Assembly (NCBI RefSeq): GCF_003334785.1
Contig: NZ_QOWV01000015.1
DNA: 64,000 nt
Source of the DNA: Escherichia coli
GTDB lineage: Bacteria > Pseudomonadota > Gammaproteobacteria > Enterobacterales > Enterobacteriaceae
Direction: 5' to 3' (one strand)
Under the pieces are notes generated by a model. It was given only the letters and a program-made list of their open reading frames with translations. It was not told the DNA's origin and ran no database searches. Within the stretch, counting starts at the first letter, position 1. Each line of letters opens with the position of its first letter. The translations under genes were made by a program, and so were the position numbers. Shown here one piece after another: positions 26,862-31,843 of this stretch.

Positions 26862-28932
26862 TCTGGCCGCGATGCTGCGCCTGCCCGCAAACCTGAAATC
26901 GACACAATGGCAGATCCTTGCCGGACCGATTTTGATCCTGTTGATCTTGTCGATGATGGTGCTGCCACTGCCCGCATTCATACTCGACCTGTTGTTTACC
27001 TTCAATATTGCCTTGTCGATCATGGTGTTGCTGGTGGCGATGTTTACCCAGCGCACGCTTGAGTTTGCTGCGTTTCCGACCATTTTGTTGTTTACCACGC
27101 TGTTGCGTCTGGCACTTAACGTGGCTTCAACCCGTATCATTTTAATGGAAGGGCATACCGGCGCAGCGGCGGCAGGGAAGGTGGTTGAAGCGTTCGGTCA
27201 CTTCCTCGTTGGTGGCAATTTCGCTATCGGTATCGTGGTGTTTGTCATTCTCGTGATCATCAACTTTATGGTCATTACCAAAGGTGCCGGGCGTATCGCA
27301 GAAGTGGGTGCGCGCTTTGTTCTCGATGGTATGCCGGGTAAGCAGATGGCGATTGACGCCGACCTTAACGCCGGATTGATTGGTGAAGATGAGGCGAAAA
27401 AACGCCGCTCCGAAGTCACTCAGGAAGCCGATTTTTACGGCTCAATGGACGGGGCAAGTAAGTTTGTTCGCGGCGATGCCATCGCCGGGATCCTCATCAT
27501 GGTCATTAACGTTGTCGGCGGGTTGCTGGTCGGCGTGCTGCAACATGGCATGAGCATGGGACACGCGGCGGAAAGTTATACGCTATTGACCATTGGCGAC
27601 GGTCTGGTGGCACAAATTCCGGCGCTGGTGATTTCTACCGCCGCGGGGGTCATCGTTACGCGTGTCAGCACCGATCAGGATGTTGGCGAGCAGATGGTGA
27701 ATCAGCTTTTCAGTAACCCAAGCGTTATGTTGTTAAGCGCCGCCGTGCTCGGTTTGCTCGGCCTGGTGCCTGGAATGCCGAACCTGGTATTTTTGCTGTT
27801 CACGGCGGGATTGCTCGGGCTGGCCTGGTGGATACGCGGGCGCGAACAAAAAGCGCCTGCCGAACCCAAACCGGTAAAAATGGCAGAAAATAATGCTGTA
27901 GTCGAAGCAACGTGGAATGATGTGCAGCTGGAAGATTCCCTGGGAATGGAAGTAGGCTATCGGCTGATCCCGATGGTCGATTTCCAGCAGGATGGTGAGT
28001 TGTTGGGCCGTATACGCAGTATCCGCAAGAAATTTGCCCAGGAGATGGGATTTCTGCCGCCAGTGGTGCACATTCGCGACAATATGGATCTGCAACCTGC
28101 CCGCTATCGCATTTTGATGAAAGGCGTGGAGATAGGCAGTGGTGATGCTTATCCGGGGCGCTGGCTGGCGATTAACCCTGGAACCGCTGCCGGGACGTTA
28201 CCTGGTGAGGCGACCATCGATCCGGCATTTGGCCTGAATGCTATCTGGATTGAAAGTGCGCTAAAAGAACAGGCGCAGATTCAGGGGTACACCGTGGTTG
28301 AGGCCAGCACGGTGGTGGCAACGCATCTTAACCACCTCATTAGCCAGCATGCCGCAGAGCTGTTTGGTCGTCAGGAGGCGCAACAGCTGTTGGATCGCGT
28401 CGCCCAGGAGATGCCAAAGCTGACGGAAGATCTCGTTCCTGGCGTCGTCACGCTCACCACACTGCATAAAGTGCTGCAAAATCTCCTCGATGAAAAAGTA
28501 CCGATTCGCGATATGCGCACCATTCTCGAAACGCTGGCGGAACATGCGCCCATCCAAAGCGATCCACATGAATTAACCGCCGTCGTGCGCGTGGCGTTGG
28601 GACGGGCGATTACCCAGCAGTGGTTTCCTGGCAAAGATGAAGTCCATGTTATTGGCCTCGATACACCGCTGGAACGTTTGTTACTACAGGCGCTGCAGGG
28701 CGGGGGAGGACTGGAGCCAGGGCTGGCGGATCGTTTACTGGCGCAAACTCAGGAAGCGCTATCCCGTCAGGAGATGCTGGGTGCGCCGCCAGTATTGTTG
28801 GTGAACCACGCGCTGCGACCATTATTGTCTCGCTTCCTGCGCCGCAGCTTGCCGCAGTTAGTGGTCCTGTCGAATCTGGAACTGTCTGATAACCGACATA
28901 TCCGCATGACGGCGATAATTGGCGGCAAATAA
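26854..28932 (+). CDS. flhA: Flagellar export apparatus protein FlhA
   Basis: MSNLAAMLRLPANLKSTQWQILAGPIL... 692 aa, overlapping the flhB stop. Confidence 0.96.
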   Translation: MSNLAAMLRLPANLKSTQWQILAGPILILLILSMMVLPLPAFILDLLFTFNIALSIMVLLVAMFTQRTLEFAAFPTILLFTTLLRLALNVASTRIILMEGHTGAAAAGKVVEAFGHFLVGGNFAIGIVVFVILVIINFMVITKGAGRIAEVGARFVLDGMPGKQMAIDADLNAGLIGEDEAKKRRSEVTQEADFYGSMDGASKFVRGDAIAGILIMVINVVGGLLVGVLQHGMSMGHAAESYTLLTIGDGLVAQIPALVISTAAGVIVTRVSTDQDVGEQMVNQLFSNPSVMLLSAAVLGLLGLVPGMPNLVFLLFTAGLLGLAWWIRGREQKAPAEPKPVKMAENNAVVEATWNDVQLEDSLGMEVGYRLIPMVDFQQDGELLGRIRSIRKKFAQEMGFLPPVVHIRDNMDLQPARYRILMKGVEIGSGDAYPGRWLAINPGTAAGTLPGEATIDPAFGLNAIWIESALKEQAQIQGYTVVEASTVVATHLNHLISQHAAELFGRQEAQQLLDRVAQEMPKLTEDLVPGVVTLTTLHKVLQNLLDEKVPIRDMRTILETLAEHAPIQSDPHELTAVVRVALGRAITQQWFPGKDEVHVIGLDTPLERLLLQALQGGGGLEPGLADRLLAQTQEALSRQEMLGAPPVLLVNHALRPLLSRFLRRSLPQLVVLSNLELSDNRHIRMTAIIGGK

Positions 28933-29324
28933 TGAGAACCTTATTAGCAATATTATTGTTTCCGCTGCTGGTGCAAGCCGCCGGGGAGGGGATGTGGCAG
29001 GCAAGTAGTGTAGGAATTACGCTAAATCATCGCGGTGAGTCGATGTCGTCTGCGCCTCTTTCTACGCGACAACCTGCTTCAGGATTGATGACGCTGGTAG
29101 CGTGGCGTTATCAGCTTATCGGCCCGACACCTTCAGGACTGCGGGTTCGCTTGTGTTCGCAATCTCGTTGTGTCGAATTAGAGGGGCAGAGCGGAACCAC
29201 CGTGGCCTTTTCCGGTATAGCGGCAGCAGAACCGTTGCGATTTATCTGGGAAGTGCCTGGCGGTGGGCGGTTAATTCCGTCGCTGAAAGTACAACGTAAT
29301 GAAGTGATTGTGAATTATCGCTGA
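28932..29324 (+). CDS. flhE: Flagellar protein FlhE
   Basis: 130-aa secreted ORF overlapping the flhA stop. Confidence 0.94.
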   Translation: MRTLLAILLFPLLVQAAGEGMWQASSVGITLNHRGESMSSAPLSTRQPASGLMTLVAWRYQLIGPTPSGLRVRLCSQSRCVELEGQSGTTVAFSGIAAAEPLRFIWEVPGGGRLIPSLKVQRNEVIVNYR

Positions 29325-29382
29325 AGGACAAAAAAAATTACGCGCTCGCGAGTATGTTTAATAACTCAGTGAAAAAGGCTGG

Positions 29383-29429
29383 ATGTTTTGTTGCAATCAT
29401 TTATCAGGAATAGATTGCAACAAAACATG
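29383..29429. terminator. Perfect 16-bp inverted repeat (probable bidirectional terminator) between flhE and yecT
   Basis: atgttttgttgcaatc ... gattgcaacaaaacat with a 15-nt loop between convergent genes. Confidence 0.55.
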
Positions 29430-29444
29430 CCAAAAATATGTGAA

Positions 29445-29954
29445 TTATCCTCTTGTCAAAGGGCTTGGATAAAAATCTTCAGAGTTACGGTATAGCTGCA
29501 ACTGGCGAGTTCGCGTATTGGTCTGTATGATCATACATGAGAGCCATTCTGATTCAGAATAAGGGTCACTTAAATCCTGAACGTCCTCATTTGAAAGGAT
29601 TAATTCACATTCTTTGTCCCTAAAATCCAGCCAGGCTCGCTGTGATTTTTTAAGCAAGTTAAGTTGTTCGGTATCAGGTTTTTTTACACCTGTGCGTGGC
29701 ACTTGTTCTATATAACGATAAGCTTCACCATAGGCTTTATTTAATTGCGCATCGACGAGATTGTATTCTTGTCGCAGGCATGATTTGATCACGTTAACGT
29801 CAGTATCATCATCTGAATTTTTTTGCCAACAATCTTTGATGGCTGAAATGTCATGGTCGTTTACTATAACCGTATCTTCTGCGTAAGCCTGGCAAGAGAT
29901 AATGCCTAATGTTAATACAAGAAATTTAAACACTGCGGTATTCCTTAAATTCAA
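29445..29954 (-). CDS. yecT: DUF1311-family (LprI-like) secreted protein YecT
   Basis: 169-aa ORF with N-terminal signal peptide, recognised as YecT; exact start not verified. Confidence 0.8.
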   Translation of the reverse strand: MNLRNTAVFKFLVLTLGIISCQAYAEDTVIVNDHDISAIKDCWQKNSDDDTDVNVIKSCLRQEYNLVDAQLNKAYGEAYRYIEQVPRTGVKKPDTEQLNLLKKSQRAWLDFRDKECELILSNEDVQDLSDPYSESEWLSCMIIQTNTRTRQLQLYRNSEDFYPSPLTRG

Positions 29955-30109
29955 CCGTTATCGTTTCCCTGGGGCCGGATATTACGCTTCTGGCCTCTTA
30001 TCCAACAGTGAGAAAACAATGGCATGTCCATTTTCAGAATACATTTAGATGGCAATAAAAAAGCCTGATCAGGTAACCCTGATCAGGCTTTACTCTCACG
30101 AAAAATCGA

Positions 30110-31843
30110 TTACATACGCTCTACTGTCTCAATACCCAGCGTATCCAGACCCAGCTTTAGCGTCTTCGCTGTCAGTTGTGCCAGTTTCAGACGGCTGTTA
30201 CGCACTTCTTCGTTTTCTGCGCTGAGGATCGGGCAGTGCTCGTAGAAGCCAGAGAACAGACCAGCCAGATCGTACAGGTAAGCACACATCACATGCGGCG
30301 TGCCTTCACGGGCAACCACGGTGAGGGTTTCTTCAAACTGCAGCAGGCGAGCTGCCAGTTGCGCTTCACGATCTTCACGGATGATTACCGGAGCTGCAGC
30401 CAGTTGCTCTTCGTTAATTTCTGCCTTACGGAACACGGACAATACACGCGTGTAAGCATACTGCATGTATGGCGCGGTATTACCCTCAAACGCCAGCATG
30501 TTGTCCCAGTCGAAGATGTAGTCCGTGGTGCGGTTTTTGGAGAGATCCGCATATTTCACCGCACCAATACCAACCGCGTTAGCCAGTTTTTCCAGCTCGT
30601 CGGCTGGCATATCCGGGTTCTTTTCTGCCACCAGACGGCGTGCACGTTCCAGGGCTTCATCCAGCAGATCGGCCAGTTTCACTGTACCACCCGCGCGGGT
30701 TTTGAACGGTTTGCCGTCTTTACCCAGCATCATGCCGAACATGTGGTGTTCCAGCGGTACGGATTCCGGTACATAGCCTGCTTTACGGACGATCGCCCAT
30801 GCCTGCATCAGGTGTTGATGCTGACGGGAGTCGATGTAATACAGCACGCGATCGGCATGCAGTGTTTCATAACGATATTTCGCACAGGCGATATCAGTGG
30901 TGGTGTAGAGATAGCCGCCATCTTTCTTCTGAATGATCACGCCCATCGGTTCGCCTTCCTTGTTTTTAAACTCATCAAGGAATACAACGGTCGCCCCTTC
31001 GCTTTCTACTGCCAGACCTTTGGCTTTGAGATCCGCCACAATTCCTGGCAGCATTGGGTTGTAGAGGCTTTCGCCCATCACGTCATCACGGGTCAGCGTC
31101 ACGTTGAGACGATCGTAAGTGATCTGGTTCTGCGTCATGGTGATGTCGACCAGTTTGCGCCACATCTCGCGGAAATATTCGTCACCGCTTTGCAGTTTTA
31201 CCACGTAGTTACGTGCACGCTCGGCAAACTCTTCATCTTCGTCGTAATGCTTTTTCGCATCGCGGTAGAAACCTTCAAGGTCAGCCAGCTCCATTTCACC
31301 GGCGTTTTCCTGCTGCTGCTTTTCCAGCCATGCAATCAGCATACCGAACTGAGTGCCCCAGTCGCCGACGTGGTTTGCGCGAATCACTTTGTGACCGAGG
31401 AACTCCAGAGTACGCACTGCTGCGTCACCAATAATGGTAGAGCGCAGGTGACCGACGTGCATCTCTTTCGCCACGTTTGGCGCAGAGTAGTCAACCACAA
31501 TGGTCTGTTTTTCTGGCGTAGCAACACCGAGACGATCGGACGCCAGCGCCTGCTGAACATGTTCAGCCAGGAATGCCGGATCAAGGAAAATGTTGATAAA
31601 GCCTGGACCGGCGATCTCAACTTTGCTGGCGATACCGTTAAGATCCAGATGAGTCAGCACCTGCTCTGCTAATTGTCGCGGTGCCATACCCAGTTTTTTA
31701 GCAACTGCCATCATGCCGTTAGCCTGATAGTCGCCGAACTGAACTTTTGCTGACTGACGAACCTGCGGTTCGCAATCCGCAGGCGCGCCTGCCGCAATCA
31801 TGGCCTGACGGACTTTTTCTGAGAGAAGAGCCTGAATATTCAC
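30110..31843 (-). CDS. argS: Arginine--tRNA ligase ArgS
   Basis: 577-aa ORF with class I HVGH motif (EMHVGHLRS) and KMSK-like region; hairpin plus T-run terminator at ~30050-30092. Confidence 0.97.

What the first reader, a model, noticed from the sequence alone, without database searches (positions are those of the whole stretch)
29445..29954. yecT: signal-peptide DUF1311-type protein of unknown function beside the flagellar export operon
The 169-aa product has a secretion signal and resembles the DUF1311 (LprI/lysozyme-inhibitor-like) family, but its function is not established as far as I know. Its placement convergent to flhBAE and separated from it by the long palindrome is notable.
Basis: inference. 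Interest (0 to 1): 0.2.

Follow-up and report, generated by a model that had tools for sequence, protein, structure and literature searches.

The report
yecT: likely orphan T6SS immunity gene
This is the known E. coli gene yecT, an exported small protein of the DUF1311/LprI family; its nearest relatives in other bacteria sit in the toxin/antitoxin arrays of type VI secretion systems, so it is most likely a leftover protective ("orphan immunity") gene against cell-wall-degrading toxins from rival bacteria, not a flagellar gene.

Summary
Window 29445-29954 (-) is yecT of E. coli, lying in flhA-flhE-yecT-yecV-argS. Pfam LprI/DUF1311 matches over the whole model (E=1.6e-17). The protein has a Sec-type signal, four conserved cysteines and an all-helical fold like PDB 3GI7. 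The likelier start is GTG 29933 (162 aa), not TTG 29954 (169 aa).

yecT is under purifying selection (dN/dS 0.06-0.10). It lies in a 785-bp low-GC segment (about 39% GC against 54% in the flanks) that roughly 35% of complete E. coli genomes lack.

New here: the nearest non-Escherichia homologues (52-65% identity) lie inside type VI secretion clusters. They sit at the end of effector/immunity arrays, behind WHIX effectors with muramidase, amidase or chitinase-like toxin domains, and directly upstream of PAAR. LprI-family proteins are published T6SS immunity proteins (Etsi4).

My best reading (about 0.45) is an H-NS-silenced, BglJ-RcsB-activated orphan immunity protein that neutralises a peptidoglycan hydrolase in the periplasm. 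The flagellar link is weaker: the UmoC model scores 36 bits against a cut-off of 120.

This is a known gene with a new but untested functional hypothesis, and interest is modest.

The parts
29445..29933 (-). yecT coding sequence as annotated in RefSeq (GTG start, 162 aa plus stop)
   Evidence: dN/dS 0.06-0.10 against Escherichia whittamii and Escherichia sp. E1V33 orthologues
29934..29954 (-).
   Evidence: No Shine-Dalgarno before the TTG. AAGGA at 29942-29946 serves the GTG at 29933. Homologues align from the GTG start
29880..29933 (-). Signal peptide (residues 1-18, VFKFLVLTLGIISCQAYA, predicted cleavage AYA|ED). Cys14 also forms a lipobox-like I-I-S-C
   Evidence: Read from the sequence. 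The xYA motif is conserved in homologues. Cys14 is present only in the flhE-adjacent alleles
29499..29831 (-). LprI/DUF1311 domain (residues 35-145 of the 162-aa protein) with four conserved cysteines: C35, C52, C109, C133
   Evidence: Pfam PF07007 E=1.6e-17; conserved columns; AF2 model pLDDT 88 with long helices; best PDB match 3GI7, TM 0.78 on the target
29448..29471 (-). Subfamily-specific C-terminal tail YPSPLTRG (S157, P158, R161 and G162 invariant in the YecT subfamily)
29383..29428 (.). Perfect 16-nt inverted repeat with a 14-nt loop between the convergent flhE and yecT. It is a probable transcript-end hairpin for yecT (followed on the minus strand by CCAGCCUUUUUC) and possibly for flhBAE
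   Evidence: the palindrome is conserved in L007 and L008
29325..30109 (.). Low-GC (0.38-0.42) 785-bp segment carrying yecT, its flanking spacers and yecV. In yecT-less E. coli it is replaced by a 52-bp spacer
29934..30059 (-). yecT upstream regulatory region. The BglJ-RcsB-activated promoter was mapped by others. TATTCTGA at 30034-30041 matches the published central motif wwTTCykA (my inference)
   Evidence: PMC3950696; sequence
30024..30068 (+). yecV, an annotated 14-aa small ORF divergent from yecT
30060..30091 (-). argS intrinsic terminator hairpin (14-bp stem followed by a U-run); marks the right edge of the yecT segment

Best explanation
YecT is a small periplasmic LprI/DUF1311-family protein that most likely acts as an orphan immunity protein against a peptidoglycan-degrading toxin delivered by the type VI secretion systems of competing bacteria. 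The proposed mechanism follows. (1) The protein is exported by Sec and the signal peptide is cleaved after AYA18 (read from the sequence). (2) Two disulfides among C35, C52, C109 and C133 stabilise a helical bundle (inferred from the conserved cysteines and from the ScwA experiments). (3) The bundle binds the catalytic domain of an incoming muramidase, lytic-transglycosylase or amidase effector in the periplasm and blocks it (inferred by analogy with the LprI-type immunity protein Etsi4 and from the gene context of the homologues). (4) In E. coli the gene has no cognate effector. It sits alone in a low-GC segment, is kept off by H-NS/StpA, and is turned on through BglJ-RcsB (shown by others). 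The Rcs envelope-stress system is known to respond to T6SS cell-wall attack.
For: Family and fold: Pfam LprI over the full model, E=1.6e-17. The AF2 model has pLDDT 88; its only solid PDB match is the DUF1311 protein 3GI7, followed by a weaker hit to 6AR7 (Foldseek E=1.0; profile search 8.6e-07).

Gene is functional: dN/dS 0.06-0.10.

Context of the closest non-Escherichia homologues (52-65% identity): these are L003, L004, L009 (Mangrovibacter phragmitis), L010 and L014. In each the order is VgrG / WHIX effector (WHGGIH motif) - small secreted ORFs - YecT homologue - PAAR - KPHS_23130-family protein - TssM. L021 adds a YecT homologue behind an L003-type array of small ORFs on a short contig that ends before any PAAR gene.

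Effector toxin domains: Pesticin-like muramidase, CHAP, GH24-like lysozyme and a chitinase-like C-terminal domain (my reading of the sequence motif).

More distant LprI relatives (33-35% identity): these repeat the pattern in pseudomonad-like contigs L017-L020.

Literature: the DUF1311 protein Etsi4 rescues Etse4 periplasmic toxicity in EHEC (PMC12981562). LprI-domain orphan immunity genes are predicted in Pantoea T6SS islands (PMC9796082). A LysM/LprI pair is described in S. Dublin SPI-19 (PMC8867033). DUF1311 genes flank WHIX effectors (PMC12135965).

Accessory, silenced character: about 35% of E. coli genomes lack the gene, and GC is 0.39 against 0.54 in the flanks. BglJ-RcsB activates it and H-NS represses it (PMC3950696). 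Rcs defends E. coli against T6SS cell-wall effectors (review PMC7825059).
Against: No neutralisation or binding has been shown for YecT or for any member of its subfamily.

In the T6SS clusters the YecT homologue is never the gene immediately after an effector. Each effector has its own downstream gene, and the YecT homologue always sits at the PAAR end. Its cognate toxin is therefore unidentified.

The LprI-PAAR-KPHS_23130 order persists down to about 25-35% identity. That could mean a conserved accessory role rather than a fossil immunity gene.

Some subfamily members are in non-T6SS contexts: flhE-adjacent L006, flgE/flgD-adjacent L013, and carbonic anhydrase-leuD in L005 and L011.

E. coli MG1655, which carries yecT, is readily killed as T6SS prey in published assays, although yecT is silent under laboratory conditions and the effectors differ.
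Confidence: 0.45

Rival explanations
1. YecT-type LprI proteins are accessory periplasmic factors that control peptidoglycan-lytic activity or envelope signalling during insertion of trans-envelope machines (T6SS, flagellum). In E. coli, YecT would then be a UmoC-like modulator of flagellar biogenesis or flhDC acting through the envelope and Rcs.
For: yecT lies next to flhBAE in E. coli, E. whittamii and Escherichia sp. E1V33, and in another genus (L006: FlhE 86% identical, YecT 58%). A 62%-identical homologue lies beside flgE/flgD in an AT-rich organism (L013). The LprI-PAAR-KPHS_23130 module is conserved across distant taxa. The NCBIfam 'UmoC family flagellar biogenesis regulator' model matches YecT over its whole length (E=6e-9), and UmoC-family proteins share the fold. 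The promoter depends on RcsB.
Against: The UmoC score is 36 bits against a cut-off of 120, and every LprI protein tested scores 22-47 bits, so this is superfamily similarity only. UmoC-family proteins are 17-18% identical to YecT. About one third of E. coli genomes, including Nissle-type strains with intact flhBAE, lack yecT. E. coli T6SS clusters of the same architecture lack any YecT homologue or remnant. Neither the promoter-consensus scan nor my reading of the upstream sequence found a flagellar class 2 or class 3 promoter.
Confidence: 0.15
2. YecT regulates or buffers the cell's own peptidoglycan hydrolases (for example lytic transglycosylases), as the Salmonella periplasmic LprI-domain protein ScwA does for MltD.
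For: It has the same domain, periplasmic location and four-cysteine pattern. ScwA controls MltD levels and has two disulfides made by DsbA (PMC7933661). An LprI-family gene annotated YecT (PA3021) appeared in a P. aeruginosa beta-lactam Tn-seq screen (PMC7038268).
Against: ScwA is 275 aa with the LprI domain only at its C-terminus, a different architecture. yecT is silenced and dispensable in a third of strains, which is odd for a housekeeping regulator. The nearest homologues are in T6SS arrays.
Confidence: 0.15
3. YecT is a bona fide inhibitor of host (c-type or g-type) lysozyme, as its RefSeq name suggests.
For: The family name comes from M. tuberculosis LprI, reported to inhibit lysozyme (cited). 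The protein is periplasmic.
Against: YecT lacks the MliC domain that accompanies the LprI domain in M. tuberculosis LprI; Pfam finds only PF07007. ScwA, the only enterobacterial LprI protein tested, gave no lysozyme protection, and its authors note that there is no experimental support for the domain's name. E. coli already has Ivy (seen), and also MliC and PliG (my own knowledge).
Confidence: 0.1
4. yecT is a decaying remnant with no current function.
For: It is absent from about 35% of E. coli genomes. Truncated or frameshifted alleles are common in Shigella flexneri. It is silenced by H-NS.
Against: dN/dS is 0.06-0.10 across three Escherichia species with a full-length ORF conserved. Twenty-seven columns are invariant down to 39% identity. 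The gene has a dedicated activator-dependent promoter.
Confidence: 0.08

Closest known systems
Etsi4 (Z0245 / ECs_0213) of E. coli O157:H7, the DUF1311 immunity protein of the T6SS effector Etse4
   Same: Signal peptide plus LprI/DUF1311 domain, similar size (149 aa against 162 aa), and collinear cysteines. It is periplasmic and neutralises a periplasm-acting cell-wall toxin (PMC12981562).
   Different: Only 21% identical to YecT. Etsi4 is encoded directly beside its effector in the T6SS cluster, whereas YecT stands alone between flhE and argS. YecT has the extra C-terminal YPSPLxRG tail.
LprI-domain orphan immunity genes in Pantoea agglomerans T6SS1 hcp island (A7P61_RS17160/17155)
   Same: Secreted LprI-domain proteins kept in arrays without a cognate effector and predicted to protect against lysozyme-like effectors of rivals (PMC9796082). 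This is the same logic proposed here for YecT and its T6SS-embedded homologues.
   Different: Those genes are still inside a T6SS cluster and remain predictions only. E. coli yecT is outside any T6SS locus, and many yecT-carrying strains such as K-12 have no T6SS (my own knowledge).
UmoC of Proteus (NCBIfam NF041434, 'UmoC family flagellar biogenesis regulator')
   Same: Small exported protein with the same helical LprI-type fold. The HMM aligns over its whole length with YecT. Both have a link to flagellar genes.
   Different: YecT scores 36 bits against a cut-off of 120. Identity is 17-18%. UmoC-family proteins are about 134 aa and lack the YecT tail. No evidence ties YecT to flhDC.
ScwA (SL1344_0490) of Salmonella Typhimurium
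   Same: Periplasmic, with an LprI domain and four cysteines forming two DsbA-dependent disulfides. It has no lysozyme-inhibitor phenotype (PMC7933661).
   Different: 275 aa with a long N-terminal region. It acts on the levels of the cell's own MltD. It is not associated with T6SS.
PP0307 of Pseudomonas putida (PDB 3GI7) and M. tuberculosis LprI N-terminal domain
   Same: Same Pfam family. 3GI7 is the best structural match (TM 0.78 on the target, rmsd 2.1 A over 100 columns; profile E=7.7e-15).
   Different: 16-17% identical. 3GI7 has no assigned function. M. tuberculosis LprI is a lipoprotein with an additional MliC domain that YecT lacks.

Membership tests
Pfam LprI / DUF1311 (PF07007; COG3755 'YecT') | Significant match to the family HMM over the whole domain | tested here: met
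   i-E 1.6e-17, 64.3 bits, model positions 1-106 of 106, residues 42-152 of the 169-aa ORF
Pfam LprI / DUF1311 (PF07007; COG3755 'YecT') | Four conserved cysteines | tested here: met
   C35, C52, C109 and C133 are invariant or at least 90% conserved in alignments of 13 and 63 sequences
Pfam LprI / DUF1311 (PF07007; COG3755 'YecT') | All-alpha helical-bundle fold as in PDB 3GI7 | tested here: met
   AF2 model pLDDT 88, helices 46-77, 88-113 and 124-147. Foldseek top hit is 3GI7, probability 1.00, TM 0.78 on the target
UmoC family flagellar biogenesis regulators (NCBIfam NF041434) | Score at or above the curated cut-off (120 bits) | tested here: not met
   36 bits. Eight other LprI proteins score 22-47 bits (two of the ten tested had no hit), so the match is generic superfamily similarity
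UmoC family flagellar biogenesis regulators (NCBIfam NF041434) | Raises flhDC expression or swarming when overexpressed | not testable with these tools
   Needs genetics. No paper found on yecT and motility
T6SS immunity proteins of the LprI type (e.g. Etsi4) | Encoded next to a cognate T6SS effector | tested here: not met
   In the window yecT is flanked by flhE and by yecV/argS, hence 'orphan'. Homologues at 52-65% identity are inside effector/immunity arrays but are not immediately after an effector
T6SS immunity proteins of the LprI type (e.g. Etsi4) | Located in the compartment where the toxin acts (periplasm) | tested here: met
   N-terminal signal peptide with an AYA|ED site, read from the sequence. 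No dedicated predictor was available
T6SS immunity proteins of the LprI type (e.g. Etsi4) | Binds and neutralises a specific effector | not testable with these tools
   Requires co-expression rescue, competition and interaction assays
Proteinaceous lysozyme inhibitors (MliC/PliC, Ivy, PliG; M. tuberculosis LprI) | Presence of an MliC, Ivy or PliG inhibitory domain | tested here: not met
   The Pfam scan finds only PF07007
Proteinaceous lysozyme inhibitors (MliC/PliC, Ivy, PliG; M. tuberculosis LprI) | Inhibits lysozyme in vitro or protects cells | not testable with these tools
   The related ScwA gave no protection (PMC7933661)
Bacterial lipoproteins | Lipobox [LVI][ASTVI][GAS]C at the end of the signal peptide, conserved among orthologues | tested here: inconclusive
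   I-I-S-C14 in E. coli and V-I-S-C14 in the flhE-adjacent L006 allele fit a lipobox. But the cysteine lies only 14 residues from the annotated start, is absent from all T6SS-embedded homologues, and an A-x-A signal-peptidase I site follows

The most novel reading that the evidence does not exclude
YecT-type LprI proteins are not fossil immunity genes but a conserved third partner of the PAAR-KPHS_23130 module. On this reading they are periplasmic governors of the peptidoglycan-lytic step that lets large trans-envelope machines (T6SS, flagellum) cross the cell wall. The copy beside flhBAE in Escherichia, and Proteus UmoC, would then be flagellar versions of the same principle, feeding back on Rcs and flhDC.
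Probability: 0.1. Interest if true: 0.6.

Novelty: already known. Interest (0 to 1): 0.25.

Why it matters
yecT is one of the remaining E. coli K-12 y-genes with no assigned function, and it is the namesake of COG3755. If it is an orphan T6SS immunity gene, even the T6SS-less laboratory strain carries a silent defence against interbacterial cell-wall toxins that can be induced through RcsB. That would be an enterobacterial counterpart of the orphan immunity arrays and acquired interbacterial defence islands described elsewhere. It would also give a simple, testable function for a strain-variable gene present in about 65% of E. coli. Finally, it would caution against reading the RefSeq name 'lysozyme inhibitor' literally.

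Tried and rejected
- **UmoC membership.** Rejected: 36 bits against a cut-off of 120, and other LprI proteins score alike.
- **Sequence search of YecT against PDB.** Only chance hits. A profile search was needed to reach 3GI7 and 6AR7.
- **PADLOC anti-phage models.** No hits for YecT, Etsi4 or neighbouring immunity proteins.
- **GTDB species-representative scan.** Only three loci: two Escherichia species and Mangrovibacter. The subfamily is rare, and a broad census was not possible.
- **Second profile search of the 5.8-billion-protein set.** No new members.
- **yecT remnant in E. coli T6SS clusters with the same PAAR-KPHS_23130-TssM architecture (L015, L016).** tblastn found none.
- **Clean mobile-element borders for the 785-bp low-GC segment.** None found. 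The only repeat is an 11-bp direct repeat (29309 and 29439) that does not flank the segment, and the yecT-less haplotype has an unrelated 52-bp spacer.
- **Sigma-70 consensus scan of the yecT upstream region.** No convincing promoter. The published promoter is activator-dependent.
- **NCBIfam annotation of the T6SS neighbours.** Mostly empty. Pfam was needed to confirm the Pesticin-like domains.
- **Identifying the cognate effector from adjacency.** Failed: the YecT homologue is always at the PAAR end of the array.
- **Pseudogene idea.** Rejected by dN/dS.

Full report
**What is there.** The window around the finding reads flhA - flhE (28932..29324, +) - yecT (-) - yecV - argS (30110..31843, -) - yecM - cutC. 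It is 100% identical to many E. coli chromosomes. RefSeq starts the gene 21 nt further in, at GTG 29933, giving 162 aa. I favour that start for three reasons. It has an AAGGA Shine-Dalgarno 8 nt upstream (29942-29946). The TTG has none. All homologues align from M-x-[KR]-[FL] at that point.

**Family and fold.** The Pfam scan gives LprI (PF07007, the former DUF1311) at i-E 1.6e-17 over the complete model, with nothing else significant. The mature protein keeps four cysteines (C35, C52, C109, C133 in 162-aa numbering), which are invariant or nearly so across 63 family members. An AlphaFold2 model built on that alignment has mean pLDDT 88 and three long helices. Its only meaningful PDB neighbours are the function-less DUF1311 protein PP0307 (3GI7; TM 0.78 on the target, rmsd 2.1 A) and 6AR7. 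No solved complex informs the mechanism. The N-terminus (VFKFLVLTLGIISCQAYA|ED) reads as a Sec signal with an A-x-A site. An I-I-S-C14 lipobox-like motif is also present, but it is not conserved in most homologues. I leave the question of lipoprotein versus soluble protein open.

**Is it a live gene?** Yes. Orthologues at the same flhE-yecT-argS position in Escherichia whittamii (L007) and Escherichia sp. E1V33 (L008) give dN/dS of 0.06-0.10. dS for yecT (0.10-0.16) is lower than for argS (0.26-0.32). This hints that the segment has moved between Escherichia lineages more recently than its flanks diverged.

**Genomic setting.** yecT lies in a 785-bp segment of GC 0.38-0.42, between flanks of about 0.54.
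- Of 5,426 complete E. coli genomes, 3,642 contain the segment and 3,544 have it essentially intact.
- The rest, including a Nissle-derived strain, have flhE and argS separated by an unrelated 52-bp spacer with its own hairpin.
- Truncated or frameshifted alleles are frequent in Shigella flexneri.

It is a perfect 16-nt inverted repeat (29383-29398 / 29413-29428, loop 14 nt), unique in the window. It forms a hairpin of -25 to -26 kcal/mol on either strand (z about -6). It lies within the low-GC segment and is conserved with yecT in L007 and L008. It is most simply the 3'-end hairpin of yecT and perhaps also of flhBAE.

**Published knowledge.** I found no functional study of yecT. Its promoter is one of ten shown to be activated by the BglJ-RcsB heteromer. 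Expression rises moderately in an hns stpA background and strongly with constitutive bglJ (PMC3950696).

**The key new evidence is context.** The subfamily is small.
- An exhaustive phmmer search of 1.84 billion cluster representatives found only a handful of full-length relatives above 40% identity.
- Two searches of the 5.8-billion-protein set added about ten clusters at roughly 60% identity.

Wherever those relatives sit on contigs long enough to read, most lie in type VI secretion loci. L003, L004, L009 (Mangrovibacter phragmitis MP23), L010 and L014 share one order: VgrG, then a large effector, then one to four small secreted ORFs, then the YecT homologue, then 32-68 bp later a PAAR gene, then a KPHS_23130-family membrane protein, then TssM/TssA. 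L021 shows the same kind of small-ORF array as L003.

The effectors share an N-terminal domain with the WHxxxH motif that defines WHIX effectors (PMC12135965). Their C-terminal toxins differ:
- Pesticin-like muramidase in L004 and L009 (Pfam E 8.5e-6 and 3.2e-8).
- CHAP in L003.
- A GH24-type lysozyme fragment in L009.
- Chitinase-like domains in L010 and L014, from my reading of the sequence motif.

More distant LprI relatives (33-35% identity) repeat the pattern in pseudomonad-like DNA. L017 has WHIX-Pesticin, then a 160-aa ORF, then LprI. L018, L019 and L020 have LprI, then PAAR, then a KPHS_23130-like protein.

**How this connects to known biology.** LprI/DUF1311 proteins are documented or predicted T6SS immunity proteins.
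- Etsi4 (Z0245) rescues the periplasmic toxicity of Etse4 in EHEC (PMC12981562). It is 21% identical and collinear with YecT.
- A LysM-type effector with an LprI partner is described in Salmonella Dublin SPI-19 (PMC8867033).
- Two LprI genes are listed as orphan immunity genes in the Pantoea hcp island (PMC9796082).
- DUF1311 genes flank WHIX effectors.

In the arrays I examined, each effector is followed by its own small gene, for example a 124-aa LprI protein in L004. A TsiV3-family gene follows the effector in an E. coli cluster of the same architecture. The YecT homologue always sits at the far, PAAR-proximal end, whatever the current effector is. That is what sequential displacement of effector modules would leave behind: an old immunity gene kept as protection against relatives that still fire the old toxin. 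This step is inference. E. coli yecT would then be the same gene stranded outside any T6SS locus, a true orphan.

**Proposed mechanism and status of each step.**
- Sec export and signal cleavage: read from the sequence.
- Disulfide-stabilised helical bundle: model plus conserved cysteines, with the ScwA experiments as precedent.
- Stoichiometric binding and blocking of an incoming peptidoglycan hydrolase in the periplasm: inferred from family precedent and gene context, not shown.
- Expression silenced by H-NS and switched on through BglJ-RcsB: shown by others.

This fits the reported role of the Rcs envelope-stress response in surviving T6SS cell-wall effectors (review PMC7825059). However, BglJ-RcsB activation is reported to be independent of RcsB phosphorylation. 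I put this explanation at about 0.45.

**What argues against it, and the rivals.** No cognate toxin is identified.

The LprI-PAAR-KPHS_23130 order survives to 25-35% identity. That is long for a fossil gene and could mean an accessory function tied to the PAAR end of the cluster. Against that idea, E. coli clusters with the same PAAR-KPHS_23130-TssM core have no YecT homologue or remnant.

A flagellar reading has some support.
- The flhE adjacency holds in three Escherichia species. It also holds in a contig from another genus, where FlhE is 86% and the YecT homologue 58% identical (L006).
- A 62%-identical copy lies near flgE/flgD in an AT-rich organism (L013).
- The NCBIfam model for UmoC, the Proteus 'upregulator of the flagellar master operon', aligns end to end with YecT.
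- UmoC-family proteins share the fold.

But the UmoC score is 36 bits against a cut-off of 120, and other LprI proteins score 22-47 bits. Identity is 17-18%. One third of E. coli genomes do without yecT. I give this rival 0.15.

A ScwA-like role in controlling the cell's own lytic transglycosylases gets a similar weight. Literal host-lysozyme inhibition is less likely. YecT lacks the MliC domain found in M. tuberculosis LprI, and ScwA showed no such activity. A dead remnant is contradicted by the purifying selection.

**Verdict.** This is an already known, annotated gene of a known family. The added value is a specific, testable hypothesis that it is an orphan T6SS immunity protein. I also note that the 'lysozyme inhibitor' label and the flagellar neighbourhood are both weak guides to function. 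Interest is modest (0.25).

Noticed in passing
window 29325-30109, compared with L002 2126-2177: Presence/absence polymorphism. The 785-bp low-GC segment (yecT, yecV and both spacers) is replaced in about 35% of complete E. coli genomes, e.g. a Nissle-derived strain, by an unrelated 52-bp spacer with its own hairpin (gccgatgt...catcggc). No repeats or mobile-element ends mark the junctions.
   Followed up: partly
window 30024-30068 (+): yecV, an annotated 14-aa ORF (MSIFRIHLDGNKKA), lies between the yecT promoter region and argS. Its 3' end overlaps the argS terminator hairpin (30060-30091). A TATTCTGA match to the published BglJ-RcsB core motif (30034-30041) falls inside it.
   Followed up: no
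window 29309-29319 and 29439-29449: An exact 11-bp direct repeat, TGTGAATTATC, lies at the 3' end of flhE and overlaps the yecT stop codon, 130 bp apart and bracketing the palindrome. About 0.1 such repeats are expected by chance in 900 bp. It could be a deletion substrate or a coincidence.
   Followed up: no
L003, L004, L009, L010, L014, L018, L019, L020: A conserved three-gene order, YecT-like LprI - bare PAAR (85-87 aa) - KPHS_23130-family membrane protein with predicted N-terminal hydrophobic segments (386-428 aa), persists from Enterobacteriaceae to pseudomonad-like contigs. Identities fall to 33-35% for LprI and about 25% for the membrane protein. The role of the KPHS_23130 family appears to be undescribed; only one paper mentions the name.
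   Followed up: partly
L006 1-1312: A contig from a different genus (flhA/flhE about 77% nucleotide identity to E. coli) also carries a yecT-type gene convergent with flhE. That gene is only 58% identical at protein level, against 86% for FlhE. The occupant of this slot therefore evolves much faster than its neighbour, or has been replaced.
   Followed up: partly
L013 6357-9909: A 62%-identical YecT homologue sits in an AT-rich organism, followed 10 bp later by a 257-aa secreted protein of unknown family, and convergent with a 605-aa FlgE and FlgD. This is a second flagellar adjacency, possibly coincidental, and it implies horizontal transfer across distant taxa.
   Followed up: no
hits H1, H2, H15, H26: Several E. 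coli strains carry an IS1 insertion within the flhE-yecT-argS interval. [quoted passage not shown] The region appears to be rearrangement-prone.
   Followed up: no
proteins P0003, P0006, P0008, P0014, P0021-P0025: Many truncated or frameshifted yecT products are on record (for example 110-aa forms ending ...KNHSEPGWILGTKNVN), chiefly from Shigella flexneri. This indicates repeated pseudogenisation in that non-motile lineage.
   Followed up: no
window 29445-29933 compared with 30110-31843: Synonymous divergence of yecT between Escherichia species (dS 0.10-0.16) is about half that of the adjacent argS (0.26-0.32). This suggests more recent exchange of the yecT segment between lineages.
   Followed up: no
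window, inside argS (about 1.4 kb upstream of yecT): A published sigma-54 ChIP site (IS24) lies within argS and is listed with yecT as the downstream gene, 1397 bp away (PMC4591121). Its relevance to yecT is unknown.
   Followed up: no
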